DNA of 64,000 nt, from positions 182,627 to 246,626 of the forward strand of contig JBAYFY010000001.1 of NCBI GenBank assembly GCA_041666945.1, read 5' to 3'. Below are positions 3,982 to 57,643 of the stretch, one piece after another; positions within the stretch are counted from its first letter, which is position 1; each line of letters begins with the position of its first letter. The notes beneath the pieces are model-generated. The model saw nothing but the letters and a program-made list of their open reading frames with translations. It was not told the origin of the DNA and made no database searches. A program made the position numbers and the translations under genes. This stretch comes from Candidatus Buchananbacteria bacterium (GTDB lineage: Bacteria > Patescibacteriota > Patescibacteriia > 2-01-FULL-39-33).

Positions 3982-4455
3982 ATGAAACAAAAATTACCCC
4001 TTCCTTTGATGATTCTGGCCGCCGTGGTCGTAATCGTGCTTGTCGGCGCCGCATCCTTTTATGCCGGCACCAAGTATTCTTCAGCCAAGAGATTCAGCTC
4101 GTTTGGCAATGGCAATTTTGGGCCGGGCCAACAGCAAGGCGATGCCGCTGCGGCCGGCCGGAAAATCAATGCCGGCGGGGGAATGATTAACGGCGATATC
4201 CTGTCTTTGGACGAAAAGAATATTACGGTTAAGGGTCGCGACGGCAGTTCCAAAATGGTTTTTTTCGCCACTTCAACGGAAGTGGGCAAGTTCGCCGTCG
4301 GAACCGTTAGTGATTTGGCTGTCGGACAGAATGTCATGGTAACAGGTAAAACCAATAGCGATGGCAGTATTGTCGCCCAGTCGATTCAGATTCGTCCGGC
4401 TGCGGCTAATCCCGATCTTGGCGCGCCCGCTGTTTCTGGCAATCCAGTTAAATAA
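3982..4455 (+). CDS. small secreted/anchored Gly-rich protein of unknown function
   Basis: N-terminal hydrophobic signal/anchor and a Gly/Ala-rich linker. No catalytic motifs. Confidence 0.5.
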   Translation: MKQKLPLPLMILAAVVVIVLVGAASFYAGTKYSSAKRFSSFGNGNFGPGQQQGDAAAAGRKINAGGGMINGDILSLDEKNITVKGRDGSSKMVFFATSTEVGKFAVGTVSDLAVGQNVMVTGKTNSDGSIVAQSIQIRPAAANPDLGAPAVSGNPVK

Positions 4456-4476
4456 TAATCAAATAATTTTGACCGC

Positions 4477-4511
4477 TAAAAGAACACTCCGTAGGAGGAG
4501 TGTTCTTTTTT
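4477..4511. terminator. bidirectional intrinsic terminator hairpin
   Basis: AAAAGAACACTCC-gtagga-GGAGTGTTCT followed by TTTTT. It has an A-tract on one side and a T-tract on the other, so it serves the + CDS and the minus-strand tRNA. Confidence 0.7.
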
Positions 4512-4512
4512 G

Positions 4513-4584
4513 TACCGCCACGGAGAATCGAACTCCGGTTCTCGCCTTGAGAAGGCGGTGTCCTAACCACTAGACGATGGCGGC
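4513..4584 (-). tRNA. tRNA-Glu (anticodon CUC)
   Basis: The reverse complement GCCGCCATCGTCTAGTGGTTAGGACACCGCCTTCTCAAGGCGAGAACCGGAGTTCGATTCTCCGTGGCGGTA folds as a cloverleaf. Anticodon loop is TTCTCAA and the T-loop is TTCGATT. It aligns closely to E. coli tRNA-Glu. Confidence 0.8.
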
Positions 4585-4830
4585 AAAAGCGTTACTTTTA
4601 TTGGCTAGTGAGCGAGCGAACCAGCGCTTTAAAGCGCTGGATTCCGAGCGAGCGACGCCAATATAGTCAAATACTGCTCGGCTTGCCGAGCTGTTAGTAC
4701 GCAAGTTCCACTATTACCCCGGGGCTTGTCCCGGGGGTTATATTATTAAAGACGAAATTATTATAGCATAAATTTTTGGAATAATCAAGTCGCCAGGCGT
4801 TTTTTTAATTTGCCGTCTTTGTCTGGTTGC

Positions 4831-4859
4831 TTGTTTCTGCCTTGTTTTTAGTGTAAAAT
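4831..4859 (+). promoter_or_regulatory. candidate sigma70-like promoter for the 4894 gene
   Basis: TTGTTT, then a 17-nt spacer, then TAAAAT with TG immediately upstream; about 35 nt before the ATG. Confidence 0.3.
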
Positions 4860-4893
4860 TAACTCTGTCAATCCGATTAATTTAATTAATTTT

Positions 4894-7134
4894 ATGAATC
4901 AAAAGCCGCTTTTGGCGTTGGCATTAAAAGCTGTAATCTGGGCTTGCTTGGGCGTTATTTTTTTCTCCGCCCTGTATGTCAGTTCGTATCTCTTTTTTCC
5001 TTTCATCACCACTAAAAATTTCGCTTTTCAAATCAGCGTAGAAATAATGTTTTTCGCTTTCCTGTTGCTGTGCCTGGTTGACGGTAGATACCGCATCCGG
5101 CTTAATCCCGCCGTGCTTTTGATTCTTCTTTACTTAGTGATTTTAACCGTGGCCTCGGCTTTTTCCGGCAATGATTTTTACCATTCTTTTTGGTCCAACA
5201 ATGAGCGTTGCGACGGCATCCTGCTTTTGTTGCACCTGTCTTTGTTCTGCGTGGTGCTGTCGGGTTTTTTCCGTTCCATTAAAGAATGGCTTTATGTGTT
5301 TGATTTGTTCCTTGTCGCTTCCTTCGCCGTCGCTCTGGTGGCGTTAGACCAATATTTGGCTTTGACTTTCGTCGGTTCCTGGTCGGATCATTTTATGCCG
5401 TCGTCAAACGGCGCGCGTTTGGCCGGCACAATAGGCAACTCCGGCTATGTCGGCGGTTATATGGTGTTTGGAATTTTTACCGCCCTGTTCATGTCTTTAA
5501 AGCGCTCGCAGTGGTGGGCCAAGGCCTGGTATGTCTTAGTGATGCTTTTAGAATTATTTATCGCCGTGCAAACTTTTACTCGCGGCGCTTATCTGGCTTT
5601 ATTGGTCGGAGCGGGCATTTCCGTGCCCTATTTGATGATATTTTATTATCGCAATCGCTACCTGAAAATCGCCGCCGTTTCGCTGATTGTTTTGTTCGTT
5701 TTGTCGTTCGCTTCCATTTTTGTTTTTAAAGATTCTGATTTTGTCAGGCAACAGCCGATTTTAAGCCGCATCTCCTCCATTTCCCTAAAAGACGGCACCG
5801 CCAACAACCGTCTCATCACTTGGGGGCTTGCCTTGCAGGCCGTAGAAGAAAAGCCGTTGTTGGGTTGGGGCCAGGAGAATTTTTATCAGATTTTTGACAA
5901 ATACTACACCACTAAAAACACCGAGCAATGGTTTGACCGTTCGCATAACATGATTTTTGATCGAGCCACTACCGGCGGCATTATCGGCCTGTTGAGTTAT
6001 CTGGCGTTATTGCTCCTGCCTTTTTATTTTATGTGGCGCTATTACTGGGGCGAATATAAAGAGAGGACGGACGACAAAGAGCATTTGGCCAGGCGTTTTC
6101 TTACGCCCGTAATTTTTTCCATTCTAATTCTGGCTTATATCATCCAGAACATGTTTATTTTTGAGGCCCTGGCGATTTATATCCCGCTGATTATGGTTCT
6201 AAGTTTTGTCGGACAGTACGGCCGGGGTTGGAATTTCGCCTTTTTGGACAATTTTAATTTCAAAGCGGGTTTGGCCGTGGTAATGGTTGTTTTATTGGCG
6301 CCCATGCTTTGGATTTTCAATCTTAAGCCGCTTTACGCCAATATAGATTTCATTAAGGCCCTGACTACGCCTTGGCCGACTTTGCAGGACAAAATAAACG
6401 CTTTTGAAGAAGTTATCGGCCGGGGTACTTTTGGCAATCAGGAATATCGCCGGCACTATTTTAATTTTTACGAGCAGACCATAATGGATTATCTCGGCCA
6501 GCAGGAAAATCGTACGGCGGAGAAAGACAAGCAAATGTCCGATTGGTCAAACTTAATGGAAAGCCAATTCCAGGCGCAACTGAAAGAGAACCCTAATAGC
6601 GTTACTAATTGGTTGCTTTTAAACCGTTTTTATAATATTTCCTATTATTTTGACGTGAGACGGCTGCAAAAGGCGACGGATATCGCTGAACAAGCCATCA
6701 GTTTGAGTCCGGGCCGGCCGCAGGGGTATTATGTGGCGGGCATGTCGTATTATTATTTCGGCGCTTATTTTTTAATGAACAAGAATGATGTTGAAGCGGC
6801 AAAATGCTACAAAGAAACCCTGGCATTATTCTGGCGCGGAGCCAATAAGAATGTCAGACCGGGCGAGGGTTTTGACCAGTTCGTTGATTTTATTCTGTCT
6901 TTGCAGAGCAATCCGGCCTCCGCTCCGATTTTCGCCCGACTGTTGGCCGAGGAGCCGATAAATAATTCAACCTCTATAGAGGTGATTAAAGAATTGGCCC
7001 GGTGGTCAAATTTATCCGCCGATCAAGAAATTATGGCGCAAAGGCAGGATAAGCTTAAGAGCATGGCGGCTTGGCTGATAGCTTCCAAGGCGGGCAGTCC
7101 AGAGCTAAGGCAATATTTGGAAACAATCAAGTAA
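4894..7134 (+). CDS. O-antigen ligase/polymerase-like (Wzy_C domain) polytopic membrane protein with C-terminal soluble TPR-like domain
   Basis: About 12 TM helices. Wzy_C-type motif RSHNMIFDRATTGGIIGLLSYLALL. About 250 aa of hydrophilic C-terminus. Confidence 0.65.
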   Translation: MNQKPLLALALKAVIWACLGVIFFSALYVSSYLFFPFITTKNFAFQISVEIMFFAFLLLCLVDGRYRIRLNPAVLLILLYLVILTVASAFSGNDFYHSFWSNNERCDGILLLLHLSLFCVVLSGFFRSIKEWLYVFDLFLVASFAVALVALDQYLALTFVGSWSDHFMPSSNGARLAGTIGNSGYVGGYMVFGIFTALFMSLKRSQWWAKAWYVLVMLLELFIAVQTFTRGAYLALLVGAGISVPYLMIFYYRNRYLKIAAVSLIVLFVLSFASIFVFKDSDFVRQQPILSRISSISLKDGTANNRLITWGLALQAVEEKPLLGWGQENFYQIFDKYYTTKNTEQWFDRSHNMIFDRATTGGIIGLLSYLALLLLPFYFMWRYYWGEYKERTDDKEHLARRFLTPVIFSILILAYIIQNMFIFEALAIYIPLIMVLSFVGQYGRGWNFAFLDNFNFKAGLAVVMVVLLAPMLWIFNLKPLYANIDFIKALTTPWPTLQDKINAFEEVIGRGTFGNQEYRRHYFNFYEQTIMDYLGQQENRTAEKDKQMSDWSNLMESQFQAQLKENPNSVTNWLLLNRFYNISYYFDVRRLQKATDIAEQAISLSPGRPQGYYVAGMSYYYFGAYFLMNKNDVEAAKCYKETLALFWRGANKNVRPGEGFDQFVDFILSLQSNPASAPIFARLLAEEPINNSTSIEVIKELARWSNLSADQEIMAQRQDKLKSMAAWLIASKAGSPELRQYLETIK

Positions 7135-7170
7135 TATAAAAATCCCCGGATAAAATCGGGGATTTTTAGT
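7135..7170. terminator. bidirectional terminator between convergent genes
   Basis: ATAAAAATCCCCGG-ataaaat-CGGGGATTTTTAG. Confidence 0.65.
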
Positions 7171-7188
7171 TAACTGATTTTTTGTTTT

Positions 7189-8340
7189 TTATTTCAAATA
7201 TGTCGCAAAGGTTTTTTCTACCATTTCGCTTAGGCCGAATTCTTTCTTTACCTTAGCCAGTCCCGCTTCGCCGAATTGTTTTCTTATCCGGTCGTCGGCT
7301 AAAAGCTTGATTTTTTCCGCTAACGATTCGGGAGAGCGCGGTTTGGCCAGATAGCCGGTAACGCCGTCGTCAATCATTTCCGGGATGCCGCCGACACGAG
7401 TCGTCACTATCGGCAAGCCGGCGGACATGGCTTCCAATATGAAATAGGGCAGGCCTTCTTTGACCGACGACATGACCGCCAAGTCCAGCGCCTTTAAATA
7501 TCTGGCGGCTTGCGGTTTGCCGCCGGCAAGAATAACGTCATCCTGTAATTCCAATTGTTTGATTTGCCGTTCCAATTCGCCTCTTAATTCTCCCTCGCCG
7601 ATGATTATCAGCTTATAGCTTAGGGCAGACGGCTTGCGGTTCAACAGCTTAATGGCATCAATCAGATAATTTAATCCTTTGGTGGCATAAAAATTAGCAA
7701 TCGTCCCAAGTATAAACTGTTGGCCGTTGATTATTGGCTGGCGGTTGAATAATTCGGCCGAAGCGATTTCTTTATCCCAAAAGTAATCTTCAGGAAAATC
7801 TACGCCATTATGGATAGTAATTAATTTATCGGGTTTGGCGATTTTTTTGTTTATGCCGATTTGCCGATCGTATTCGGAAACGCAGATAATGCGATGTTTG
7901 GTTCCGGCCGTCAGCCGTTCCAGCCAGAGGTACAACGACCGTTTAAGCGGATTCATTGGTTCATTGAAAACCCAGCCGTGAGCCGTGTAAATAAGCTTGC
8001 CCCGGATTGATCTGGGGCAAAACCAGAAGGCGAAAGTACCGACTACGCCCGCTTTGGAGCTGTTTAAATGGATTATGTCCGGTTTAATTTTTCGGTATAA
8101 TTTAGCCAATTCAAAAACAGCCAAAATATCGTTTAGGGGAGAGATGGCTCTTTTTAGGTGCTTTAGAGTCAAAAATTGGCTATTTTTAGCGTTAATTTGT
8201 TGACTAAGCCAATTACCGCTGTTTTCACCGACAGCCACGCTAACGTCCCAATTTTGGCCTGCAGCGGCCCTTGCTAAGGCGCTGATATAAAGTTGGGCGC
8301 CGCCGATTTCGCCCTGGGTTATGACATAAAGGATTTTCAT
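7189..8340 (-). CDS. glycosyltransferase family 4 (GT-B)
   Basis: N-terminal MKILYVITQGEIGGAQLY; EX7E-type motif EGLPYFILEAMSAGLPIVTTRVGGIPEMI. Confidence 0.85.
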   Translation of the reverse strand: MKILYVITQGEIGGAQLYISALARAAAGQNWDVSVAVGENSGNWLSQQINAKNSQFLTLKHLKRAISPLNDILAVFELAKLYRKIKPDIIHLNSSKAGVVGTFAFWFCPRSIRGKLIYTAHGWVFNEPMNPLKRSLYLWLERLTAGTKHRIICVSEYDRQIGINKKIAKPDKLITIHNGVDFPEDYFWDKEIASAELFNRQPIINGQQFILGTIANFYATKGLNYLIDAIKLLNRKPSALSYKLIIIGEGELRGELERQIKQLELQDDVILAGGKPQAARYLKALDLAVMSSVKEGLPYFILEAMSAGLPIVTTRVGGIPEMIDDGVTGYLAKPRSPESLAEKIKLLADDRIRKQFGEAGLAKVKKEFGLSEMVEKTFATYLK

Positions 8341-8359
8341 AATTTAAAACAAATGAAGC

Positions 8360-8389
8360 TTGAAATTTATAATCATTTTCTGCTATAAT
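8360..8389 (+). promoter_or_regulatory. strong sigma70-like promoter heading the long + strand gene array
   Basis: TTGAAA (8360-8365), then an 18-nt spacer, then TATAAT (8384-8389). Confidence 0.5.
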
Positions 8390-8423
8390 ATTAAGGTATT
8401 ATTTGACAATTTACAAGACCGCC

Positions 8424-9266
8424 ATGAATAAATTAATCGGTTTTATCGGCCAGGGCTGGATCGGCAAAAATTATGCCGACGATTTTGAAGTTAGGGGCTA
8501 TCAGGTAATCAGATATTCTTTGGAAGAACCGTATCTCGCCAACAAAGAAAAAATCAGCGAGTGTGATATCGTGTTCATTGCCGTGCCTACCCCGACTACC
8601 CGGACGGGGTTTGATGATTCCATTGTCAGAGGCGCCGTGAAGCTGGTCGGCCAAGGCAAGATCGCGGTAATCAAGTCCACGATTCTGCCCGGCACGACAG
8701 AGTCAATCCAAGCGGAAAATCCAAATATTTATTTGTTCCATTCGCCGGAATTTTTGTCTGTTTCCACCGCTTATGACGATTCGCGCCATCCGCAGAGGAA
8801 TATCGTCGGCCTGCCCATAGACAATGAAACATACAAAACCAAAGCCCGAGAGGTGATGTCGGTGTTGCCCCAGGCGGATTTTTCTCTTATTACTTCGGCC
8901 AAAGAAGCGGAATTATTCAAGTATTTGCGGAACTGCTTTTTTTATACCAAAGTCGTTTACATGAACATGCTTTATGATTTGGCCAAGAAGTTAGGTTGCC
9001 GGTGGGAAGTGCTAAGGGAAATCATGTCCAATGATCCCTGGATTGGCAACATGCATATTGATCCGGTGCATAAAAGCGGCCGGGGCGCCGGCGGAGAATG
9101 CTTTATCAAGGATTTAGCCGCACTTAGGCGTTTCTACAAACAGAATTTGAACGATGAAACGGCGGATTGGGTTTTTTCCGCTTTGGAGAAAAAGAATATT
9201 GAGTTGTTGTTAAAAAGCCAGAAAGATTTGGATTTGCTTAAAGGCGTTTATGGCGAGGATATTTAA
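8424..9266 (+). CDS. UDP-glucose/GDP-mannose dehydrogenase family protein, short form lacking the C-terminal UDP-binding domain
   Basis: N-terminal Rossmann motif IGFIGQGWIGKNYA. Catalytic-Cys motif GAGGECFIKD (UGDH GGxCxxKD). The ORF track starts at a TTG at 8403; the ATG at 8424 (MNKLIGF) is more plausible. Only about 280 aa, versus about 390-450 aa for typical UGDH. Confidence 0.6.
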   Translation: MNKLIGFIGQGWIGKNYADDFEVRGYQVIRYSLEEPYLANKEKISECDIVFIAVPTPTTRTGFDDSIVRGAVKLVGQGKIAVIKSTILPGTTESIQAENPNIYLFHSPEFLSVSTAYDDSRHPQRNIVGLPIDNETYKTKAREVMSVLPQADFSLITSAKEAELFKYLRNCFFYTKVVYMNMLYDLAKKLGCRWEVLREIMSNDPWIGNMHIDPVHKSGRGAGGECFIKDLAALRRFYKQNLNDETADWVFSALEKKNIELLLKSQKDLDLLKGVYGEDI

Positions 9267-9282
9267 GAGATAGTTTGTTATC

Positions 9283-9310
9283 TAACCTGTTACGTAGCAT
9301 GCTACGTAAC
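9283..9310. repeat. perfect 22-bp palindrome GTTACGTAGCATGCTACGTAAC, preceded by CCTGTTACGTA (minimal member of the same GTAACAGG element family)
   Basis: CCTGTTACGTA is the exact reverse complement of the TACGTAACAGG 11-mer found at 62712-62722. Confidence 0.6.
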
Positions 9311-9320
9311 AATTTATCGC

Positions 9321-10547
9321 ATGCCTGCGGAAAACAAAAAAAGAATTCTGATTTTTTCTTTGGCTTACCATCCTTTTGTGGGCGGAGCCGAAGTGGCCAT
9401 TAAAGAAATCACCGAGCGGCTGGGTGAAGATTTTGAATTTGACATGATTACGGCTAACTTGAGCGGCCATGAGCCGAAGGAAATTGAGAATTTTAACGGC
9501 ATCAGCCGGGTTTACCGTTTAGGCGCCGGAAAATTTGACAAGTATCGTTTTCCTTGGCTGGCGTACAACAAAGCGTTGGAGTTGCAGCAGAAAAACGATT
9601 ATGACGCGGTTTGGGCGATGATGGCCAATCAGGCGGGCTTGGCCGCCTTGAAATTCAAGCGTCGTTTTCCGCAGATTCCTTATTTATTGACTTTGCAAGA
9701 AGGGGACAGCGAACTGAATATCTGGCTGCGCACTTGGTTTATCCGGCCGATTTACAAGGCGATTTACCGCCGCGCCGATTATATTCAGGCGATCAGCAAT
9801 TTTTTGGCCAAGCGCGCCAAGCGTTTAGGCGCGAAATGTCCGATTGAAGTGGTGCCGAATGGCGGTGTTATCGAATTAAATTTAGTAGATTTAAAAGATT
9901 ACAGCAAACAAAAAAATAATGCCGAATTTGTTGCTGAATTTGATTCCACTATTGTGAAAGAAATAGAACAGATAAATAAAAATTTGAAAAAAGGTGATAA
10001 TTTAATCATAACTACTTCGCGATTAGTCAAGAAAAACGGAATAGTGTATTTAATACAGGCAATGAAATTTTTACCAAATAACTTTAAGTTAAGAATTATT
10101 GGTGACGGGAAGTTAAAATTAAAATTAAAAAAAACAGTTAAAAAATTAAATTTGAAAGATAGAGTTGAATTTATTGGTCAAATTGATTTTAGAAAATTGT
10201 ATAAATATTATTGGTATAAACCAATAATATTTGTCCGCCCGTCATTGTCGGAAGGATTGGGTAATGTTTTTTTGGAAGCGATGTCAATGAGTATTCCTGT
10301 AATTGGTACTAAAGTTGGTGGCATTCCTGATTTTTTGGTTGACGGCGAAACCGGCTGGTTCTGCAAAGTTAAAAATCCCGAAAGCATCGCGGAAAAAATC
10401 AATTACATTTTGTCTGAAAAAAATAAAGCCGAAGTTGAAAGAGTGGTTGAAAATGCCCAAAAATTAGTAGCCGAAAAGTATAATTGGAATAAAATAGCCG
10501 GCGAGATGAAAAATATTTTCAATAAATTGGCAAATGGACAAGAATAA
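9321..10547 (+). CDS. glycosyltransferase family 4, with an AT-rich mosaic C-terminal domain
   Basis: GT4 C-terminal domain motif EGLGNVFLEAMSMSIPVIGTKVGGIPDFLVDGETG. The segment from about 9860 to 10330 has sharply lower GC than its flanks. Confidence 0.8.
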   Translation: MPAENKKRILIFSLAYHPFVGGAEVAIKEITERLGEDFEFDMITANLSGHEPKEIENFNGISRVYRLGAGKFDKYRFPWLAYNKALELQQKNDYDAVWAMMANQAGLAALKFKRRFPQIPYLLTLQEGDSELNIWLRTWFIRPIYKAIYRRADYIQAISNFLAKRAKRLGAKCPIEVVPNGGVIELNLVDLKDYSKQKNNAEFVAEFDSTIVKEIEQINKNLKKGDNLIITTSRLVKKNGIVYLIQAMKFLPNNFKLRIIGDGKLKLKLKKTVKKLNLKDRVEFIGQIDFRKLYKYYWYKPIIFVRPSLSEGLGNVFLEAMSMSIPVIGTKVGGIPDFLVDGETGWFCKVKNPESIAEKINYILSEKNKAEVERVVENAQKLVAEKYNWNKIAGEMKNIFNKLANGQE

Positions 10548-11685
10548 CACAAAAATTTTAATCGCCACCGGCATTTATCCGCCGGATATCGGCGGCCCGG
10601 CCACGATGCTTGAAGCGCTGGCCTCGTCTTTGCGCGCCGAGGGTTTTGGCGTCAAGGTCATCACTTACTCCGGCCAAAAACGTTCAGAGCAAGACGTTTA
10701 TCGGGTGTTGAAAAACAGAATTTTCAGCCGCTTGCATTATTTTCTGGCTATGTTTTTTTTGTCTTTTGACGCCGATCTGATTTATGTAACCGATATTTAC
10801 AGCGTCGGCTGGTTTGCCAATCTGATAAAAAAGTTGACCGGCAAAAAATATTTGGTCAGGTTTGCCGGCGATGCCGCCTGGGAAACAGCCACTTCTAACG
10901 GTTGGACGACCGACTACATCACGGATTTTGAAAAAAATAATTATAATCAACGGATTGAAAAAATGAAAGCGCGCCGCCGCCGGATTTTAACGGAAGCTGA
11001 TGCGGTTATCGCCGTCAGTAATTTTATGGGCGACTTGGCCAAGCTGATCGGCGTTGATTCGGCAAAAATAAATGTCATATACAATGCGATTGATTTTAGC
11101 GATGAAACCGGCGTTAACGAGTCGGTTGCCGCCGATCTGCCCAAGGGCGGCCAAATTATCATGACGGTTTGCCGATTGACCAAATGGAAGGGCGTTGATC
11201 AGTTAATCAAGGCCATGCCGGAGATTATCAAGCGTTTGCCCCGGGTTTATTTGATTATTTTAGGCGACGGGCCGGAACTGGAAAGCTTGCAGGATTTAGC
11301 CCGGTCTTTGAATCTGGCCGATCAGGTAAAATTTCTTAACCGCATACCGCATGAAAACGTTTTGGAATATTTAAGCCGGGCCGACGTTTTCGTTTTAAAC
11401 ACCAATTATGAAGGTTTATCCCATACTTTACTGGAAGCCATAAAAGCCGGAACCCCGGTGATCGCCACCAATGTCGGCGGCAATCCTGAAGTTGTTACTG
11501 ACAACCAAAACGGACTGTTGGTAGATTATAACGATCAAAGCCGGTTAACCGAAGCGATTTGCCAATTATTGACTGACAGGCCGTTAGCCAAAAGATTGGC
11601 TGAAGCGGCGACGATTAAGTTAAAGGATTTTTCTTGGCGGCAAACAGTGGATAAAACTGTTGATTTATTGAAAAAATTGCGATGA
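10534..11685 (+). CDS. glycosyltransferase family 4
   Basis: EGLSHTLLEAIKAGTPVIATNVGGNPEVV. Overlaps the upstream gene by 14 nt. Confidence 0.85.
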   Translation: MDKNNTKILIATGIYPPDIGGPATMLEALASSLRAEGFGVKVITYSGQKRSEQDVYRVLKNRIFSRLHYFLAMFFLSFDADLIYVTDIYSVGWFANLIKKLTGKKYLVRFAGDAAWETATSNGWTTDYITDFEKNNYNQRIEKMKARRRRILTEADAVIAVSNFMGDLAKLIGVDSAKINVIYNAIDFSDETGVNESVAADLPKGGQIIMTVCRLTKWKGVDQLIKAMPEIIKRLPRVYLIILGDGPELESLQDLARSLNLADQVKFLNRIPHENVLEYLSRADVFVLNTNYEGLSHTLLEAIKAGTPVIATNVGGNPEVVTDNQNGLLVDYNDQSRLTEAICQLLTDRPLAKRLAEAATIKLKDFSWRQTVDKTVDLLKKLR

Positions 11686-13127
11686 AAAAAGTTTTATTGG
11701 TTAATCCCGAATTCAATATTGTCAAAGATAATTACGACAGCTCTATTTCTGTCGGTCTGTTGAGTATCGCGACGTATTTAAACAGCCAAGGAGTGGAAGT
11801 GAAAATAATAGACGGCGTCAGGCAAAAGGATTATCTGGCTTTATTGGAGCGAGCGATTAAGGAATTTGACCTTGTAGGCATTTCGGTCATGACCATGCAG
11901 ATTTCCAATGCTTTGAAGGTTTCCGAGTTGATAAGAAAGCTTAATCCCGCCGCGACGATTGTCTGGGGCGGCTCGCATCCGACTTTTTTTATTGAGCAGA
12001 CGGCCAAAAATCCCTTGATTGACGCGGTGTGTTTTGGCGAAGGGGAGGAAACCATGTTGCGATTGGCGCAGGGCCTGCCGTACGCTGAAGTTAAAGGCCT
12101 TGCCTATCGCGATTCCGGCGCGGTCGTCATTAATCAGCCGCAACCCCTGCATCGGCCGCAGTCCATGCCGCTGTTCAATTGGGATTTGGTGCCTCCGGAA
12201 ATCAGAGATCACTTGTATTTGATTCCCTCGCTGACTTCGCGCGGCTGTCCGCATCGCTGCACCTTTTGCATTAACGCGATTTTAAAAAATCAATGGCGCG
12301 CCCGAACCGTGGAACAAGTGCTTGAGGATTTGCGGATAATCAAAACCAAAGAATACTTCAAAGATAAAAAACTGCGTTTTTGGGACGAGAATTTTTTTGT
12401 GGATATCGGTCGCGCTAAAGCGATTATTGCCGGAATGATCAGGGAGAATCTGGTGTTGCCATGGGAAACCACCGTTCGCGCCGACTATATCAGGCCGGGC
12501 AAAATAGATGACGAATTTTTGGCCGAACTTAAGCGGTCCGGCTGTTATTTGCTGTCTTTTGGAGCTGAATCCGGCAGTAGCCACGTTTTAAAAATGATAA
12601 AAAAGGATGTTACGGCCGATGACATAGTCGCTTCCGCCGCCGCTTGCCTCAAACACGGCATCATACCCCAGTATTCATTTATGATCGGTTTGCCCGGCGA
12701 AACGCGAAGCGACATGCAGGATACCCTGAAACTGATTGACCGCTTGGTTGCTTTAAGCGACGAAGTCCAGATTTTGGGCCCGCAGGCCTTCCGCCCCTAT
12801 CCCGGATCGGAATTGTACGAGGAATGCGTTAAGGCCGGCTGGCAAGAACCGCAATCGCTGGAGGACTGGAAAAAAGTTTCGGAAAATGAATTGAGTTATA
12901 TGTCAGTCAAGAATTTCCCTTGGGTCAAAAACAAAGATTTTGTGGAATCAATGGAGGCCTATGTCAGGTTCGGCGCCCTGCCGTTTAAAAGCGCGATGAA
13001 TTCAACTATTTCTTCCAACAGATTGCTGAAATTTTGTTTCATTTGTTTATGCAAGTTGCGCTGGAAATTAAAGTTTTTTGCCTGGCCGTTGGAATTTAAA
13101 TTAGCCAAAAGATTTGTCACTAAATAA
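11682..13127 (+). CDS. B12-binding domain radical SAM protein (class B)
   Basis: N-terminal cobalamin-binding Rossmann region (LVGISVMT...VWGGSHPT, GEGEET) and radical SAM cluster SRGCPHRCTFC. ATGA overlap with the upstream gene. Confidence 0.85.
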   Translation: MKKVLLVNPEFNIVKDNYDSSISVGLLSIATYLNSQGVEVKIIDGVRQKDYLALLERAIKEFDLVGISVMTMQISNALKVSELIRKLNPAATIVWGGSHPTFFIEQTAKNPLIDAVCFGEGEETMLRLAQGLPYAEVKGLAYRDSGAVVINQPQPLHRPQSMPLFNWDLVPPEIRDHLYLIPSLTSRGCPHRCTFCINAILKNQWRARTVEQVLEDLRIIKTKEYFKDKKLRFWDENFFVDIGRAKAIIAGMIRENLVLPWETTVRADYIRPGKIDDEFLAELKRSGCYLLSFGAESGSSHVLKMIKKDVTADDIVASAAACLKHGIIPQYSFMIGLPGETRSDMQDTLKLIDRLVALSDEVQILGPQAFRPYPGSELYEECVKAGWQEPQSLEDWKKVSENELSYMSVKNFPWVKNKDFVESMEAYVRFGALPFKSAMNSTISSNRLLKFCFICLCKLRWKLKFFAWPLEFKLAKRFVTK

Positions 13128-15337: not shown

Positions 15338-16810
15338 ATGACGCAAGACAATCAAAAAAATTTGGATTGCCTGTTGATCGCTCCGCCTGATTATTACGGC
15401 GATGAGGATAATATTTGGCGGGAGATTAATTCTAATTTTCCTCCTTTGGGTTTGGCTTCCATCGCCGGCTATATTCGCCAACAGGGCCAGGCCGTGGAAA
15501 TAATCGATTGCGAGGTTTCCTGCCCTTCAGTCAGGGCTTTTGGCGATTATTTAAGGGATAATTTTATTAATCGCCGCAGAGACATCAGAGTGATAGGTTT
15601 TACCGCCACCACCGGCCAAATCAAAAAAGCTTATCAAGCCGCGGAAATTTGCCGGTCATATTATCCTAATGCCCTGATTGTTTTCGGCGGCGTTCACGCG
15701 ACCTTCGTTACTGACGAAGTTATTAATCAGCCGTTTATTGATTTGGCGGTAGTGGGTGAGGGAGAAATTACTTTGGGAGAAATATTATCCGGTAAAAATA
15801 TCGGGGAGATTGAGGGCGTGGTGTATAAGAAAGAGCTAAACGGCCAAAAGCAGATAATCCGCAACGCGCCGCGCCGGCGGATTGCCAATTTGGACGACTT
15901 GCCTTTGCCGGCTTATGATTTATTGCCGATTGACAAATATCGGCCGGCCAAAGGTTCATACAAAAAGCTGCCGGCTATGAGTTTGATGACCAGCCGCGGT
16001 TGTCCGGGGCGTTGCACTTTTTGCAATAAGACCCTGGGTGATCAGATGATTTTCAAATCGGCCGCCGGAATTTTTGCCGAAATAAAATATTTGGCCGCTA
16101 ATTACGGCATCAGGCAAATAATGTTTTATGACGATACTTTCACCGTCTTTCGCCAGAATGTCATTGATTTATGCGACCTGCTGTTAAAGAATAAAATGGA
16201 TTTGTCCTGGACATGTTTTGCCCGGGTGGATTACGTCGATGAAGCCATGTTGCGGAAAATGTCCGACGCCGGTTGCCATCAGATTATGTACGGCGTGGAA
16301 AATATTGACGAAGCCGTATTAAAAAATATCAATAAAAAAATAAATTTAACCCAAGTGATTAATGCCGTCAAATGGACCAAGCAGGCGGGGATAGAGTGCC
16401 GTTTGGCTTTCATGGTGGGCAACCCCGGCGATGATCGCCAAGTGATTGAGAAAAATATCCGCTTTATCAAAAAAATCAATCCCGATCTGCTGATCGTCAA
16501 TATCACCACGCCTTTTCCCGGCACGGCCATGTTTGATTGGGCCAAGGAACGCGGTTTGCTGTTGAGCGAGAACTGGGACGACTTTAATCTGGCCAAGCCG
16601 GTCATGAGATTGGAAAATCTTTCGGCGGCGGAAATAAAGGATTTATATAAAATCATGTACCGCAGTTTTTATTTTCGGCCGAAGTTCGTTCTTAAAAAAG
16701 TTTTTAGCATCAGATCGTTTGCTGACGCAAGAATTTTGCTTGACGGCTTTATGGCCCTGGTTTCATTTTTTATGCCCAAACGGTCGGGTGATGATATAAA
16801 AAGCGTTTAA
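15338..16810 (+). CDS. B12-binding domain radical SAM protein (class B)
   Basis: LPLPAYDLLP motif; cluster SRGCPGRCTFC; B12 region GGVHATF, GEGE. Confidence 0.85.
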   Translation: MTQDNQKNLDCLLIAPPDYYGDEDNIWREINSNFPPLGLASIAGYIRQQGQAVEIIDCEVSCPSVRAFGDYLRDNFINRRRDIRVIGFTATTGQIKKAYQAAEICRSYYPNALIVFGGVHATFVTDEVINQPFIDLAVVGEGEITLGEILSGKNIGEIEGVVYKKELNGQKQIIRNAPRRRIANLDDLPLPAYDLLPIDKYRPAKGSYKKLPAMSLMTSRGCPGRCTFCNKTLGDQMIFKSAAGIFAEIKYLAANYGIRQIMFYDDTFTVFRQNVIDLCDLLLKNKMDLSWTCFARVDYVDEAMLRKMSDAGCHQIMYGVENIDEAVLKNINKKINLTQVINAVKWTKQAGIECRLAFMVGNPGDDRQVIEKNIRFIKKINPDLLIVNITTPFPGTAMFDWAKERGLLLSENWDDFNLAKPVMRLENLSAAEIKDLYKIMYRSFYFRPKFVLKKVFSIRSFADARILLDGFMALVSFFMPKRSGDDIKSV

Positions 16811-35209: not shown

Positions 35210-36544
35210 ATGGCGGCAATAAAACAAAAAATTACCCAGGCCTGGCGGTATTTGTGGCAGTTGAATTTTTTTCGCGACCTATTGGTTTTGCAATGGGGTT
35301 CTTTTTGGGATTTGGGTTTATCACTGATCGCTTCCGTTATTTATGCCCGAGTTTTGGGCGTCGGCGCTTATGGCGACTATGCCTTGATTTTTGCTTTAGC
35401 CAGCTTCGCCGGATTATTCATGGATTGGGGCACCGGTTACGCCACTTTGACGCTTTTGGCCGAGGCCTATGCCAAAAGAAGCCGCCAGGATATCAAAGAC
35501 ATCATTACTTATTTTTTTAAATTGAATTTGATTATCGCGGTAACTTTTGGTTTGTTAGCCATTCTTTCGGCTCCGACTCTGGCGCAATATTTTTACCACA
35601 ACCGCCTGATTGGCGAATTGGCTCGGTTGATAATAGTCGGCTACATTTTCCAAATATTTTTCGGCTTATTGGTGAATTTGCTTCAAGTCATGCGGAAGAT
35701 AAAATACCTAACCATTATAGAAAATGTTAACAAATTTTTTGCCGTTTTTTTACCCGTAATTTTTGTCTTCATGGGGTTCGGCTTGGCTGGAATCGCCTGG
35801 GGTTATTTGCTGACTATCATCGGCACCATGGTTTTTTCTATTTTAGTTTATCGAAATTTTGCGCGCCGCAATGAATTGGTGCCGTCATTTCGCGAAATTT
35901 TGATTAACTTCCATCAAGTTAGAATTAAGAAATATTTTAATTTCGGTTTCGTTATGGCCGCGGATAAAAATATCTCTAATTTATTCAATATTCTGCCCTT
36001 ATTAATTCTTGGTTATCTGGCTTCTTCAGTTGAAGTGGCTAATCTGAAAATCGCCTTAGCTTATTTGGCTTTGTCTAATGTTTTTTTAACTCCGATCAGC
36101 CGTTTATTGCAGGTGCAATTGCCCAAAGCTAAAGTTGCCGGCATTAAGGATTTGAAGGTTAATTTTTATAAATCCTCGCTTTTTGCCGGATTGATTTTCT
36201 TTTTTATTGTTTTGGCTTCTTTGATTGTTGCTCCCTATGTTATTAGAATCGTTTATGGTTCGGCGTTTGATTTAAGCATTAAATTGGTTTATCCGCTGTC
36301 GTTAAGCGTTATTTTTTCCGGTTTCGCCATCGGCTTAGGAGCAGTTTATCGAACAATCAATAAAAATATCTATGCTATTGCCATAAATCTCGCCAATCTG
36401 ATTTCTGGTTTTATCTTGATGTTTTTTCTCTTGCAGTTCATTTCTCCGTTAAGCGCTATTATTATTTTAATAATTTACTGGTCGTTTTTTAGCTTAGCGG
36501 CCCATTTTTCGTATTTAAAGAGTTATTTTTTGAAACTATATTAA
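35210..36544 (+). CDS. polysaccharide biosynthesis protein / Wzx-like flippase (MOP superfamily)
   Basis: 444 aa, about 12-14 TM helices, no soluble domains. Confidence 0.65.
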   Translation: MAAIKQKITQAWRYLWQLNFFRDLLVLQWGSFWDLGLSLIASVIYARVLGVGAYGDYALIFALASFAGLFMDWGTGYATLTLLAEAYAKRSRQDIKDIITYFFKLNLIIAVTFGLLAILSAPTLAQYFYHNRLIGELARLIIVGYIFQIFFGLLVNLLQVMRKIKYLTIIENVNKFFAVFLPVIFVFMGFGLAGIAWGYLLTIIGTMVFSILVYRNFARRNELVPSFREILINFHQVRIKKYFNFGFVMAADKNISNLFNILPLLILGYLASSVEVANLKIALAYLALSNVFLTPISRLLQVQLPKAKVAGIKDLKVNFYKSSLFAGLIFFFIVLASLIVAPYVIRIVYGSAFDLSIKLVYPLSLSVIFSGFAIGLGAVYRTINKNIYAIAINLANLISGFILMFFLLQFISPLSAIIILIIYWSFFSLAAHFSYLKSYFLKLY

Positions 36545-36547
36545 GTT

Positions 36548-37777
36548 ATGAAAATATTATTCGTTTCCGATGATTTCCCGCCGGTAACTCATACGGGGCC
36601 GTCCATCGTGACTTATAATTTAGCCCAAGGCCTGATTAAATTGGGCCATAGTATTTTCGTCATCGCCAGCGTTCAAGATAAACAACGGGCCGGAATGGAG
36701 ATTTACGACGGCATAGAAGTCCATCGGATTTATGCTTGCTATCCGGATCGTTGGAATAGTTATGTGAGTTTGTTCAATCCCCAGGTCGTTTTCAAATTTA
36801 AGAAGATAATCAAGAAAATCAAGCCGGATATTTGCCATTTTCATAATGTCCATGGCCATATATCGTACCATACTTTTTCTCTCGGCCGGCGATATTCCCG
36901 AGCGGTTTTTTTGACGGCGCACGATACGATGCTTTTTAATTACGGCAAACTTAATTTAAAAAACGGCACCTGCCGTTATAAAGTGAGTTTTGTGGATAAT
37001 TTAAGAAACGCTAAAAAAAGATACAATCCCTTGCGTAATATTTTAATTAAGCATTATCTCAAATATATAGACAAAATTTTTTGCATTACTAATGCGCAAA
37101 AAGAACTTTTGGCTTTAAACGGTATTACTAACACAGCCACGATCCATAATGCCATTGCCAGCGATTATTGGCAAAATAATAATTCGGAGATTGAGGCGTT
37201 TAAGGAAAAATTCAAATTGGCCGGTAAAAAGGTGGTTATGTTTGGCGGACGATTGAGCGAGGCCAAGGGCGGCGGCGCCATTATTGAGGCCATGACTCGG
37301 GTGGTGAAGGAAGTGGATAATGCAGTATTAGTGGTAGTCGGAGAGATGACCGGTTATGCCAAGGATTTAATTAATAAAATTAATAATACCCGACTTGCCG
37401 ACAAGGTTTTATTTACCGGCTGGCTAAGTCGTCAAGAAATAGGGTTGGCTTTTTTTTCGGCTGACGTTTGCGTCACGCCGTCAATTTATTTCGATCCGTT
37501 TAATCTGTTTAATATCGAAGCCATGTCAGCCGGCAAACCGGTGGTCGGGACTTGTTTTGGCGGGACCCCGGAGATTGTAGTTGACGGCGTAACCGGCTAT
37601 ATAGTTAACCCGCTTAAAACCGAAGAATTCGCCGATAGAATCGTGGACTTATTGAAGCAGCCGGATCTGGCCGAGAAATTCGGGCGGGCTGGCCGCCAAA
37701 GAGTGCTAAAAGATTTTTCCCTTAATGAACAGATGACCGAAACTCTTGGCTGGTATAATAAGTTTATAGATAAATAA
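36548..37777 (+). CDS. glycosyltransferase family 4
   Basis: MKILFVSDDFPP; EAMSAGKPVVGTCFGGTPEIVVDGVTG. Confidence 0.85.
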   Translation: MKILFVSDDFPPVTHTGPSIVTYNLAQGLIKLGHSIFVIASVQDKQRAGMEIYDGIEVHRIYACYPDRWNSYVSLFNPQVVFKFKKIIKKIKPDICHFHNVHGHISYHTFSLGRRYSRAVFLTAHDTMLFNYGKLNLKNGTCRYKVSFVDNLRNAKKRYNPLRNILIKHYLKYIDKIFCITNAQKELLALNGITNTATIHNAIASDYWQNNNSEIEAFKEKFKLAGKKVVMFGGRLSEAKGGGAIIEAMTRVVKEVDNAVLVVVGEMTGYAKDLINKINNTRLADKVLFTGWLSRQEIGLAFFSADVCVTPSIYFDPFNLFNIEAMSAGKPVVGTCFGGTPEIVVDGVTGYIVNPLKTEEFADRIVDLLKQPDLAEKFGRAGRQRVLKDFSLNEQMTETLGWYNKFIDK

Positions 37778-40187: not shown

Positions 40188-40190
40188 TCT

Positions 40191-51738: not shown

Positions 51739-51782
51739 TTAACAGAACTATTTATACCATATTTAGATGAAAAAAACAAGTT

Positions 51783-51809
51783 TTGACTTAATTTAATTTA
51801 TGTTATAAT
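51783..51809 (+). promoter_or_regulatory. sigma70-like promoter for the GtrA/UXS/GT2 array
   Basis: TTGACT (51783-51788), then a 15-nt spacer, then TATAAT (51804-51809); about 28 nt upstream of the 51837 start. Confidence 0.45.
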
Positions 51810-51836
51810 GAAATAGGGTTAAATGCCCCGATTTTT

Positions 51837-57398: not shown

Positions 57399-57643
57399 CC
57401 CTCCTGTCATCCTCTTGAATAATCCCCACTGTCATCCTCTTGAATAATCCCCACTGTCATCCTCGCGGAGGCGAGGATCCAAGAGGTTAAAATTATATAA
57501 TAATGGATTCCCGCCTACGCGGGAATGACGGATAAAAAATTGAAACAGCAGGAACAATGCGGAGGCGAGGATCCAAGAGGTTAAAATTATATAATAATGG
57601 ATTCCCGCCTACGCGGGAATGACGGATAAAAAATTGAAACAGT
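57389..57643. repeat. composite repeat cluster: about 2.5 tandem copies of a 25-bp unit, then two identical 84-bp direct repeats separated by 10 bp
   Basis: Two perfect copies of the 25-bp unit CTGTCATCCTCTTGAATAATCCCCA (57404-57428 and 57429-57453); a degenerate half-copy in the ZIP 3' end (57389-57403) and a partial copy at 57454-57464. 84-bp unit GCGGAGGCGAGGATCC...ATTGAAACAG at 57465-57548 and 57559-57642, 100% identical. Internal palindromes ATCCTCGC-gga-GGCGAGGAT and TTCCCGC-ctac-GCGGGAA. Confidence 0.85.

What the first reader, a model, noticed from the sequence alone, without database searches (positions are those of the whole stretch)
9860..10330. Sharp AT-rich mosaic segment inside a GT4 gene, suggesting a recombined C-terminal domain
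Within 9321..10547, GC drops abruptly over roughly 470 bp, with long runs such as aaattaaaattaaaaaaaacagttaaaaaattaaatttgaaa. The flanking sequence, and indeed the rest of the window, is markedly more GC-rich. The low-GC block encodes precisely the core of the C-terminal Rossmann domain of the glycosyltransferase, which binds the donor nucleotide-sugar and runs from about ITTSRLVKKNG to GGIPDF. The reading frame is preserved throughout. This looks like a domain replacement by horizontal recombination from a low-GC donor. Such a swap could re-programme donor-sugar specificity.
Basis: seen in the sequence. Interest (0 to 1): 0.65.

Follow-up and report, generated by a model that had tools for sequence, protein, structure and literature searches.

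The report
Recombined AT-rich block in glycosyltransferase gene
A sugar-transferring enzyme gene in an uncultivated groundwater-type bacterium carries a foreign, AT-rich middle piece acquired by recombination, at a spot where relatives also carry very different versions; this is a real but fairly ordinary kind of event for cell-surface sugar genes.

Summary
Window 9866-10336 is the lowest-GC 471-bp stretch in the 64 kb (26.5% vs 43.8%, z -4.5). The shift sits at synonymous sites: GC3 is 0.20-0.22 vs 0.51 for the window's genes.

The gene (9321-10547) is an intact GT4 glycosyltransferase of a Candidatus Buchananbacteria (Patescibacteria) MAG. It is a three-part mosaic:
- The N-domain is 88.7% nt identical to a co-occurring relative (L001), and that alignment stops at 9862.
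- The tail and downstream genes are 85% identical to L004.
- The tract 9864 to about 10304-10335 groups with a different, 'long-linker' branch of the family. No close donor is known.

- The tract begins at the interdomain linker, about 45 codons earlier than stated.
- The same cassette is hypervariable, and usually AT-richer than its flanks, in relatives, with recurring junctions at VVPNG and FVRPSLSEG.
- Re-programmed donor specificity is untested, and every family-invariant position inside the tract is retained.

This is a new example of a known kind of event: recombination and low GC in surface-glycan loci. Interest is modest.

The parts
9321..10547 (+). Intact GT4 (GT-B, retaining-type) glycosyltransferase gene of 408 aa. 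It is the mosaic gene that carries the AT-rich tract.
   Evidence: Pfam Glycos_transf_1 scores 131 bits and Glyco_transf_4 64.7 bits, both above their cut-offs. A 100% match is annotated 'glycosyltransferase family 4 protein [Candidatus Buchananbacteria]'. The AF2 model has pLDDT 89.8 and shows two Rossmann-type domains. The best PDB sequence matches are BshA-type GT4s, E 4e-18.
9321..9863 (+). N-terminal domain (aa 1-181, ending in VVPNG). It has host-like composition, and its closest relative is the gene of a co-occurring population (L001/P0008).
   Evidence: GC is 48.4% and GC3 0.58. Window 8377-9862 aligns with L001 at 88.7% nt identity and stops at 9862. It is 90% aa identical to P0008. 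Its NJ sister is the short-linker clade in 199 of 200 bootstraps.
9864..10229 (+). Hypervariable core of the imported tract (aa 182-303). It comprises a long interdomain linker plus C-domain strands and helices beta1-alpha3, including the conserved SRLVKKNG motif.
   Evidence: GC is 23.0% and GC3 0.197. It gives no blastn alignment to the close relatives L001, L004, L091 or L093, and L092 aligns only from 10003. Its nearest relatives are long-linker proteins: P0010 at 66% over 85 aa and P0041 at 55% over 107 aa. Its NJ sister is the long-linker group in 191 of 200 bootstraps. Secondary structure comes from the model.
10230..10335 (+). Conserved-motif part of the tract (FVRPSLSEGLGNVFLEAM..GGIPDF, containing EX7E at E311/E319). 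It is still donor-like up to about 10304, and the right breakpoint lies somewhere in about 10304-10335.
   Evidence: In 30-nt bins covering 10260-10304 the window is 97% and 83% identical to L003 but only 80% and 63% to L004, with a 27-nt exact match to L003 at 10263. L004 and L092 match better from about 10305. The max-chi2 inner blocks end at 10304 and 10319. GC3 over 10230-10331 is 0.32.
10336..10547 (+). C-terminal helices of the GT4. They belong to the right-hand block, which is shared with L004 and L092 and continues into the downstream genes.
   Evidence: Window 10230-12175 aligns with L004 at 84.9% nt identity. The C segment is 85.7% aa identical to P0002 and P0006. Its NJ sister is the short-linker clade in 196 of 200 bootstraps.
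8403..9266 (+). Upstream gene for a UDP-glucose/GDP-mannose dehydrogenase-like protein (287 aa). It is part of the left-hand block shared with L001.
   Evidence: Pfam UDPG_MGDP_dh_N and the central domain both hit. It lies within the 88.7% alignment to L001. The gene is syntenic in L001, L004, L091, L092 and L093.
10534..11685 (+). Downstream GT4 gene that overlaps the mosaic gene by 14 nt. It is part of the right-hand block shared with L004.
   Evidence: ORF and Pfam results. It is covered by the 85% alignment to L004.

Best explanation
The AT-rich block is a recombinant tract inside an otherwise host-like GT4 glycosyltransferase gene. Recombination between diverged copies of the same gene family replaced about 440-470 bp. 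I infer homologous recombination anchored on two short conserved motif-coding stretches: VVPNG on the left, and FVRPSLSEGLGN...GGIPD on the right. The replaced piece encodes the interdomain linker and most of the C-terminal Rossmann core.

The incoming piece is of the 'long-linker' cassette type. It carries the codon usage of a genome of roughly 30-35% GC, presumably another Patescibacterium that has not been sampled. The flanks remain of the local type: the left flank is closest to a co-occurring population (L001) and the right flank to L004/L092.

The event is one instance of a wider pattern. In this clade the same cassette differs between nearly all relatives while the N-domain stays 80-90% identical, and the junctions recur. 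The gene lies in a patchwork surface-glycan locus (Wzy_C-like protein, several GT4s, radical SAM enzymes).

Shown: the compositional anomaly at synonymous sites, the breakpoints, the discordant segment phylogeny, and the intact frame and invariant residues.
Inferred: the recombination mechanism, the low-GC donor, and any functional consequence. A change in donor nucleotide-sugar use or in partner contacts is possible but untested.
For: Composition:
- The tract is the lowest-GC 471-bp window in the 64 kb, z -4.5.
- GC3 is 0.20-0.22 against 0.51 +/- 0.057 for the window's genes.
- Codon resampling gives z -5.9. Codon choice is TTA 12/15 Leu, ATA 7/14 Ile, GGC 0/6 Gly and AGA 3/4 Arg.

Breakpoints:
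- blastn to L001, L004, L091 and L093 stops at 9862-9863 in all four. It resumes at 10230 with L001, L004 and L091, and at 10226 with L093.
- Max-chi2 for window vs L004/L003 puts the inner block at 9860-10304. It matches L004 at 34/112 informative sites, against 188/230 outside (permutation p <= 0.005). All five triplets are significant.
- Fine mapping places the right edge at about 10304-10335.

Phylogeny:
- The bootstrapped NJ sister group is short-linker for the N segment (199/200), long-linker for the cassette (191/200) and short-linker for the tail (196/200).
- The cassette shares indel architecture with L003 and L085-L088.
- The beta1-alpha3 part is 60-63% aa identical to L003, L085 and L086 but 40-50% identical to the N-domain's own relatives.

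Donor composition is plausible:
- Family cassettes in 30-34% GC loci have GC 0.25-0.26 and GC3 0.16-0.18 (L038, L034, L017, L024).
- Long-linker genes have 23-31% GC in this region.

Functionality:
- All invariant family residues are present.
- The model is confident, with pLDDT 89.8.

Family pattern:
- Among 42 pairs with N-domains >= 78% identical, cassette identity has a median of 42%.
- All six close loci carry AT-rich cassettes, GC3 0.29-0.41 against 0.51-0.60 in their N-domains.
Against: - No donor is identified. The best cassette match is only 55-66% aa and about 65-70% nt identical. The exhaustive search of 1.84 billion representatives gave no hit at E <= 1e-30.
- A milder AT dip at this position is common in the family: mean dGC3 is -0.08 and 63 of 75 genes are negative. 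Part of the composition signal may therefore be intrinsic to this region and not a sign of import.
- The middle region is the least conserved part of the family generally. Alignments would break at the same motif boundaries under rapid in-situ divergence too.
- Only one assembly holds this gene, so neither read support for the junctions nor population polymorphism could be checked.
- The timing of the event is unknown.
Confidence: 0.72

Rival explanations
1. In-situ origin. The cassette is a resident, fast-evolving part of the gene, under relaxed or diversifying selection, that drifted AT-rich under AT-biased mutation. No import took place. A related idea is that AT-ending, rare codons after the N-domain are selected, for example to slow translation at the domain boundary.
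For: - The same region is the most variable part of the protein among all close relatives, for example P0002 vs P0003 at 80/49/79% for N/M/C.
- A GC3 dip at this position is widespread: mean -0.08, and 63 of 75 genes are negative.
- All six close relatives have AT-rich cassettes.
- No donor was found.
Against: - Synonymous sites in the adjacent N-domain are far from saturated relative to L001 (88.7% nt identity), yet GC3 falls from 0.58 to 0.20 across a single codon boundary. Ordinary mutation over the same time span cannot do that.
- The cassette groups with a different branch of the family in 191 of 200 bootstraps and shares that branch's indels.
- The dip is not universal. Many mid-GC family members show none (for example L037, L018, L067).
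- A tract of 122-156 codons is much longer than the rare-codon pause clusters I recall being proposed (from my own knowledge).
Confidence: 0.13
2. Assembly artefact. The MAG contig is a chimera in which the assembler joined reads from two or three co-occurring related populations at the conserved motifs.
For: - The window's contig and the closely related L001 contig come from the same MEGAHIT assembly, ERZ27249449.
- Only one contig carries this exact protein.
- The junctions fall on conserved motifs.
Against: - The contig names (k141_...) imply a final k of 141.
- The longest exact match between this gene and any sampled locus is 44 nt. Matches reach only 17 nt around the left junction, 27 nt around the right junction and 16 nt inside the cassette. 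No sampled population could supply a switch point.
- Two switches within 470 bp that keep the frame and every invariant residue would be needed.
- Relatives from independent assemblies show the same cassette architecture with their own AT-rich cassettes.
Confidence: 0.05
3. The flanks, not the cassette, are the imported parts. On this view a resident long-linker gene had its N-domain and tail overwritten by recombination with P0008/P0002-type neighbours.
For: - The left and right flanks have different nearest relatives: L001 at 88.7% and L004 at 85%. The flanks themselves therefore have separate histories.
- The whole locus is a patchwork, with 69-89% identity to L001 from block to block.
Against: - The flanks have the composition and codon usage of the host genome: N-domain GC3 is 0.58 against a genome-wide 0.51. 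The cassette is the compositional outlier.
- Synteny of the flanking genes with the short-linker clade extends over several kb on both sides.
Confidence: 0.05
4. Targeted hypervariation by a dedicated mechanism acting on the cassette, such as a diversity-generating retroelement or another localized mutator.
For: - The cassette is hypervariable with fixed boundaries across relatives.
- DGRs are reported as frequent in CPR bacteria (from my own knowledge).
Against: - No second copy or template-like repeat of the cassette exists anywhere in the 64 kb.
- The variable tract is 366 bp and carries indels, unlike the roughly 100-150 bp substitution-only DGR variable regions I know of (from my own knowledge).
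- The cassette shows phylogenetic affinity to a specific other branch of the family.
Confidence: 0.02

Closest known systems
Low-GC, recombination-shuffled variable regions of bacterial surface-polysaccharide loci (O-antigen rfb, capsule kps/cps)
   Same: A glycan-biosynthesis locus in which a variable part of atypically low GC sits between conserved, higher-GC flanks and is exchanged by recombination and lateral transfer. PMC10433991 states that surface-polysaccharide clusters typically have lower GC than the genome and reads this as lateral acquisition. [quoted passage not shown] Here the locus contains a Wzy_C-like protein and several GT4s.
   Different: - From my own knowledge, the unit of exchange in those loci is usually whole genes. 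Here it is a sub-genic cassette of about 0.37-0.47 kb inside one GT4 gene.
- The host is an uncultivated Patescibacterium whose glycan product is unknown.
- No serotype or phenotype data exist.
Mosaic genes formed by interspecies homologous recombination (for example pneumococcal and Neisseria penicillin-binding protein genes; recalled from my own knowledge, not checked here)
   Same: Blocks of sequence with sharply different divergence and different nearest relatives lie within one intact reading frame. They are detected by breakpoint and segment-phylogeny tests.
   Different: - In those cases donors are usually identifiable close relatives and the selective agent (antibiotic) is known.
- Here the donor is unsampled, the imported block is only 55-66% aa identical to its nearest known relative, and the selective benefit is unknown.
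Engineered GT-B domain-swap chimeras
   Same: GT-B enzymes have an acceptor-binding N-domain and a donor-binding C-domain joined by a linker. Single-chain chimeras fused in the linker are active, and donor specificity follows the C-domain (PMC10937113). The left junction here lies at the start of the linker.
   Different: - This is a natural event.
- The right junction lies inside the C-domain, after beta5 and the GGIPD loop, so the C-terminal helices are not swapped.
- No activity data exist.
- The cited engineered chimeras are mostly GT1, not GT4.
BshA-type retaining GT4 enzymes (PDB 2JJM, 3MBO, 5D00)
   Same: These are the best solved-structure sequence matches, at E 4e-18 to 3e-12. The match is mainly over the C-domain and includes the EX7E region.
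   Different: Similarity is low and is confined largely to generic GT4 features. The genomic context is a multi-GT glycan cluster, not a bacillithiol pathway. There is no basis for assigning the same substrate.

Membership tests
GT4 glycosyltransferase (GT-B fold, CAZy family 4) | Pfam Glycos_transf_1 C-domain and Glyco_transf_4 N-domain both above the curated cut-offs | tested here: met
   PF00534 scores 131.3 bits (cut-off 26.4) and PF13439 scores 64.7 bits (cut-off 28.5).
GT4 glycosyltransferase (GT-B fold, CAZy family 4) | Two Rossmann-like beta/alpha/beta domains joined by a linker | tested here: met
   The AF2 model has pLDDT 89.8 and pTM 0.87. Strands and helices alternate in aa 7-177 and in aa 227-348, and C-terminal helices follow. 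No structural database comparison was run.
GT4 glycosyltransferase (GT-B fold, CAZy family 4) | EX7E motif in the C-domain, and the R/K pair after C-beta1 | tested here: met
   EGLGNVFLE lies at aa 311-319. R234, K238 and E311 are invariant in 32 family members, and E319 is >= 90% conserved. The assignment of a phosphate-binding role to R/K rests on my own knowledge of GT4 structures.
GT4 glycosyltransferase (GT-B fold, CAZy family 4) | Demonstrated glycosyl transfer, with a defined donor and acceptor | not testable with these tools
   This needs biochemistry.
Mosaic gene produced by recombination | Statistically supported breakpoints in informative-site patterns | tested here: met
   Two-breakpoint max-chi2 values are 41-87, with permutation p <= 0.005 in all five triplets.
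Mosaic gene produced by recombination | Discordant phylogenetic placement of adjacent segments | tested here: met
   Bootstrapped NJ sister groups for N / cassette / tail are short-linker 199/200, long-linker 191/200 and short-linker 196/200. These are distance trees only; no ML analysis was run.
Mosaic gene produced by recombination | Compositional or codon-usage signature of foreign origin at synonymous sites | tested here: met
   GC3 is 0.197 against an expected 0.438 +/- 0.041, z -5.9. It is the lowest of 1223 coding windows.
Mosaic gene produced by recombination | An identifiable donor lineage with high nucleotide identity to the tract | tested here: not met
   The best match is 55-66% aa and 65-70% nt identical. 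Nothing closer was found among 5.8 billion proteins, 1.84 billion cluster representatives, or the metagenome, viral, phage and plasmid collections.
Mosaic gene produced by recombination | Junctions supported by reads, or by independent assemblies of the same allele | not testable with these tools
   Only one contig carries this protein and reads are not available. Indirectly, shared exact matches at the junctions reach only 17 and 27 nt, against an assembler k of 141.
Variable low-GC region of a surface-polysaccharide locus | Lies in a glycan-assembly gene cluster (GTs, Wzy/ligase-type membrane protein, sugar-nucleotide enzymes) | tested here: met
   The neighbours are a Wzy_C-family membrane protein (seen in the syntenic loci), three more GT4 genes and a UDP-Glc/GDP-Man dehydrogenase-like gene.
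Variable low-GC region of a surface-polysaccharide locus | The variable part is lower in GC than its conserved flanks, and this holds in relatives | tested here: met
   Six close loci have cassette GC3 of 0.29-0.41 against 0.51-0.60 in their N-domains. The mean dGC3 across 75 family genes is -0.08.
Variable low-GC region of a surface-polysaccharide locus | Variation changes the glycan structure or serotype | not testable with these tools
   No glycan or phenotype data exist for these uncultivated organisms.
Diversity-generating retroelement target | A template repeat homologous to the variable region, near a reverse transcriptase | tested here: not met
   No direct or inverted repeat of 9864-10335 occurs anywhere in the 64 kb. 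A reverse transcriptase was not specifically searched for.

The most novel reading that the evidence does not exclude
The tract may be one allele of a family-wide, exchangeable sub-domain cassette. It comprises the interdomain linker plus the donor-binding half of the C-terminal Rossmann fold. It is bounded by two conserved motif-coding anchors, VVPNG and FVRPSLSEG...GGIPD. On this reading, Patescibacteria populations swap the cassette among themselves, including between co-occurring lineages of different GC content, to change the sugar added at one step of surface-glycan synthesis. That would be a modular way of diversifying the cell surface at sub-gene resolution. Unusually for GT-B enzymes, the acceptor-side N-domain stays conserved while the donor side is the variable part.
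Probability: 0.2. Interest if true: 0.6.

Novelty: new member of a known kind. Interest (0 to 1): 0.35.

Why it matters
Candidate Phyla Radiation bacteria are thought to live attached to host cells (abstract of PMC8080830), so their surface glycans are likely to matter for host and phage interactions. Almost nothing is known about how those glycans vary.

This locus gives a clean, testable example of sub-genic recombination between diverged populations, one of which co-occurs in the same sample. It also points to a cassette that differs between nearly all relatives while the rest of the enzyme is conserved. If the cassette sets donor specificity, natural chimeras like this one would be ready-made guides for engineering GT4 enzymes. 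If it does not, the pattern is still a useful marker of gene flow among uncultivated lineages.

As a single event it is not surprising, because recombination and low GC are the norm in surface-polysaccharide loci.

Tried and rejected
- **Protein search with the middle segment alone.** It returned only fragments of <= 273 aa. This looks like a length-related limit of the candidate step, and it was not informative about donors.
- **Metagenome scan with the cassette protein.** This is not a meaningful negative.
- **Viral contigs, phage records and plasmid records.** Nothing exceeded 38% identity, so there is no support for a mobile-element vector.
- **Exhaustive representative search.** It found no close cassette.
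- **Local source or template.** There is no repeat of the cassette in the window, so I rejected gene conversion from a paralogue within the 64 kb and rejected a DGR.
- **Protein-level identity drop as evidence on its own.** I rejected this because the control showed the same drop between most pairs of relatives.
- **My first estimate of the tract end, 10229, taken from blastn.** I revised it to about 10304-10335 after per-site comparison.
- **Rfam scan.** It found only three tRNAs and nothing in or near the gene.
- **Literature searches for natural mosaic GT genes and for CPR glycosyltransferase recombination.** They gave context papers but no description of this family or cassette.
Full report
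**1. Observation**

The quoted A/T run occurs once, at 10116-10157. The peptides ITTSRLVKKNG and GGIPDF are encoded at 10008-10040 and 10317-10334. The ORF 9321-10547 is unbroken.

GC is 27.6% in 9860-10330, 48.2% in the first part of the gene and 43.8% for the window. Of all 471-bp windows in the 64 kb, the lowest is 9866-10336 at 26.5% (z -4.5). The next lowest non-overlapping window has 33.1%. So the drop is real and far outside local variance.

**2. The drop is not just amino-acid composition**

Third-position GC is 0.224 in 9864-10331 and 0.197 in 9864-10229. It is 0.58 in the N-terminal part and 0.51 +/- 0.057 for all 156-codon windows of the 50 long ORFs. The 12 lowest of 1223 such windows all fall in this gene.

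I re-encoded the block's own amino acids with the window's codon usage. This predicts GC 0.331 and GC3 0.438 +/- 0.041, against 0.230 and 0.197 observed (z -5.9). Codon choice in the block is TTA 12 of 15 Leu, ATA 7 of 14 Ile, GGC 0 of 6 Gly, AGA 3 of 4 Arg and CCA 2 of 2 Pro. Roughly half of the drop comes from a K/N/I/L-rich sequence and half from a codon usage foreign to this genome.

**3. What the gene is**

The product (408 aa) is a GT4, GT-B-fold glycosyltransferase.
- Pfam Glycos_transf_1 and Glyco_transf_4 both score above their cut-offs.
- The EX7E motif lies at E311-E319.
- All residues invariant across 32 family members are present.
- The AlphaFold2 model is confident (pLDDT 89.8) and shows two Rossmann-type domains.
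- The best solved-structure matches by sequence are BshA-type GT4s at E 4e-18, too distant to infer a substrate.

An identical protein is annotated in a Candidatus Buchananbacteria MAG. The gene sits in a glycan-assembly cluster. Upstream are a large Wzy_C-type membrane protein, a divergently oriented GT4 and a UDP-Glc/GDP-Man dehydrogenase-like gene. Downstream are an overlapping GT4, a B12-binding radical SAM enzyme, a GT4-membrane fusion and another radical SAM enzyme. The upstream gene order is conserved in relatives.

**4. Mosaic structure at DNA level**

- Against L001 (the P0008 locus), window 8377-9862 aligns at 88.7% and stops at 9862.
- Against L004 (the P0002 locus), 9184-9862 aligns at 79.6% and stops at 9862. 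The alignment resumes at 10230 and runs at 84.9% to 12175, through the tail and the downstream genes.
- The stretch between aligns with none of these. Its best nucleotide match is L003 (P0010), at about 70% over 9993-10490, although L003's N-domain is only 64% identical.

Per-site comparison shows the window is still nearly identical to L003 over 10260-10304, with a 27-nt exact match at 10263. L004 and L092 match better from about 10305. Its hypervariable core is 9864-10229.

**5. Formal tests**

- Two-breakpoint maximum chi-square tests on informative sites are significant in all five triplets (permutation p <= 0.005). With L004 and L003 as references, the inner block 9860-10304 matches L004 at 34 of 112 sites, against 188 of 230 outside.
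- Bootstrapped neighbour-joining trees on 34 proteins place the N-domain with the short-linker clade in 199 of 200 replicates. They place the cassette with the long-linker group in 191 of 200, and the tail with the short-linker clade in 196 of 200.
- The cassette also shares the indel architecture of the long-linker genes L003 and L085-L088. These features are an extra roughly 25-aa linker, no insertion after helix alpha1, and the LP-N-[FY]-KLRI[IV]GDGKL motif.
- Its beta1-alpha3 part is 60-63% aa identical to L003, L085 and L086, but only 40-50% identical to the N-domain's own relatives.

**6. What the tract encodes**

According to the model, aa 182-225 form the interdomain linker. It is of low confidence at 187-204, which is the extra segment. 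After it come C-domain beta1 (227-232), alpha1, beta2, alpha2, beta3 and alpha3 (to 297). Next are beta4 (302-306), the EX7E helix (315-322) and beta5 (327-330), with the GGIPD loop at 333-337.

The tract thus covers the linker and most of the donor-binding Rossmann core. The C-terminal helices belong to the right-hand block.

**7. The family-wide control**

This changes the interpretation. Among close homologues the same region is the least conserved part for most pairs, for example P0002 vs P0003 at 80/49/79% for N/M/C. Among 42 pairs with N-domains >= 78% identical, cassette identity has a median of 42% (range 29-77%). Nearly every protein has its own cassette type.

In pairwise DNA comparisons of six close loci, alignments stop at the last base of the PNG codons and resume at the first base of FVRPSLSEG in most pairs. 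In several pairs one gapped alignment instead runs on into or through the cassette. Only L004 and L091 actually share a cassette.

These relatives also have AT-rich cassettes, with GC3 0.29-0.41 against 0.51-0.60 in their N-domains. In 75 family genes from named genomes, the cassette is on average 5.9 GC points and 8.3 GC3 points below the N-domain, and 63 of 75 genes are negative. The effect is heterogeneous, and many mid-GC members show none. The window is the most extreme (dGC3 -0.38), followed by its closest relatives.

But the relatives' cassettes are not the same sequence, so the feature is not simply ancestral. It is a recurrently replaced or otherwise hypervariable cassette, and the window carries an especially foreign allele.

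**8. Donor**

None was found.
- The full-length protein search found nothing with more than 64% identity in the middle segment.
- The segment-only search returned only fragments.
- An exhaustive HMMER search of 1.84 billion cluster representatives gave no hit at E <= 1e-30 and identities of <= 53%.
- Viral contigs, phage records and plasmids gave nothing above 38%.

Compositionally, a donor of about 30-35% GC is plausible. Family cassettes in loci of 30-34% GC have GC 0.25-0.26 and GC3 0.16-0.18 (L038, L034, L017, L024). Long-linker genes have 23-31% GC in this region.

**9. Rivals**

*In-situ fast divergence with AT-biased mutation.* This explains the general variability and the mild family-wide dip. 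It does not explain a GC3 step from 0.58 to 0.20 next to an N-domain that is still 88.7% identical to a relative. It also fails to explain the cassette's affinity to another branch of the family.

*Assembly chimera.* The window's contig and L001 come from the same MEGAHIT assembly, so this had to be considered. However, the longest exact matches to any sampled locus are 17 nt at the left junction, 27 nt at the right junction and 16 nt inside the cassette. The assembler's k, going by the contig names, is 141. Two frame-preserving switches would also be needed. Reads were not available.

*Imported flanks around a resident cassette.* Composition contradicts this.

*A DGR or other template-driven mechanism.* Nothing supports this, as no repeat of the cassette exists in the 64 kb.

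**10. Function**

The proposal that the swap re-programmes donor-sugar specificity is reasonable in principle. In GT-B enzymes the C-domain binds the donor. Engineered chimeras fused in the linker are active, with donor specificity following the C-domain (PMC10937113).

It is not shown here, however. All invariant positions inside the tract (S233, R234, L235, K238, N239, G261, G263, G286, E311), and the >= 90% conserved E319, are the same in every cassette type. The donor and acceptor are unknown.

**11. Comparison with what is known, and verdict**

Low GC and recombination-driven patchworks are typical of bacterial surface-polysaccharide loci (PMC10433991). Mosaic genes with sharp breakpoints are a classic outcome of recombination between diverged lineages (from my own knowledge). 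This case is a new example in an uncultivated Patescibacterium. Two features are less usual. The exchanged unit is a sub-genic cassette with recurring junctions at conserved motifs. And the acceptor-side N-domain is the conserved part while the donor side varies.

I rate it a new member of a known kind, with modest interest (0.35). The most novel reading not excluded is a family-wide, exchangeable donor-side cassette used to diversify the cell surface. I give this a probability of about 0.2 and an interest of about 0.6 if true.

Noticed in passing
window 9289-9310: A perfect 22-nt palindrome, GTTACGTAGCATGCTACGTAAC, lies 10 nt upstream of the GT4 start codon, between the dehydrogenase-like gene and the GT4. 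It is conserved exactly, with its flanks, in the P0008-lineage loci L001, L002 and L005, but not in the other fetched loci. It could be an operator or an RNA hairpin.
   Followed up: partly
window 57465-57548 and 57559-57642: Two exact copies of an 84-nt sequence are separated by 10 nt, in an AT-rich intergenic stretch (57399-57835) downstream of two tRNA genes and one ORF. Each copy contains a GGATTCCCGC...GCGGGAATG hairpin-like element. No Rfam family matches.
   Followed up: partly
window 11682-13127, 15338-16810, and repeats at 12215, 15970, 21593, 26262, 30258, 31621, 34350, 38343, 44690: The repeat families that encode the CxxxCxxC motif mark about nine sites across the glycan cluster. 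The two I inspected are radical SAM genes, and the syntenic homologues carry Pfam B12-binding and Radical_SAM domains. This is an unusually high density of such genes next to glycosyltransferases.
   Followed up: no
window 4001-9862 vs L001: Identity to the co-occurring relative L001 varies block by block on the left flank: 84% over 4001-4481, 78% over 4756-5600, 69% over 5853-7887 and 88.7% over 8377-9862. L001's genes to the right of the GT4 are unrelated (PMT_2, GT2 and others). The whole locus is therefore a patchwork, not only this gene.
   Followed up: partly
proteins P0004, P0005, P0009 (for example L091 3001-4842): Some close homologues of this GT4 carry a C-terminal fusion to a class I SAM methyltransferase domain and are about 613 aa long. 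In the window the gene ends where the fusion begins in those proteins.
   Followed up: no
window 36104-36574, 39900-40370, 43104-43574, 51499-51969: These are the other locally low-GC stretches, at 33-34% GC (z about -2.5 to -2.8). They are much milder than the GT4 tract, and I did not examine them for mosaicism.
   Followed up: no
Genome contigs record titles (for example L008, L009, L012, L013): Many MAGs that carry close homologues of this Patescibacteria-type GT4 are titled 'uncultured Gammaproteobacteria bacterium' or 'Candidatus Saccharibacteria' in TPA assemblies. Given the gene family and its context, these look like placeholder or erroneous taxonomic labels.
   Followed up: no
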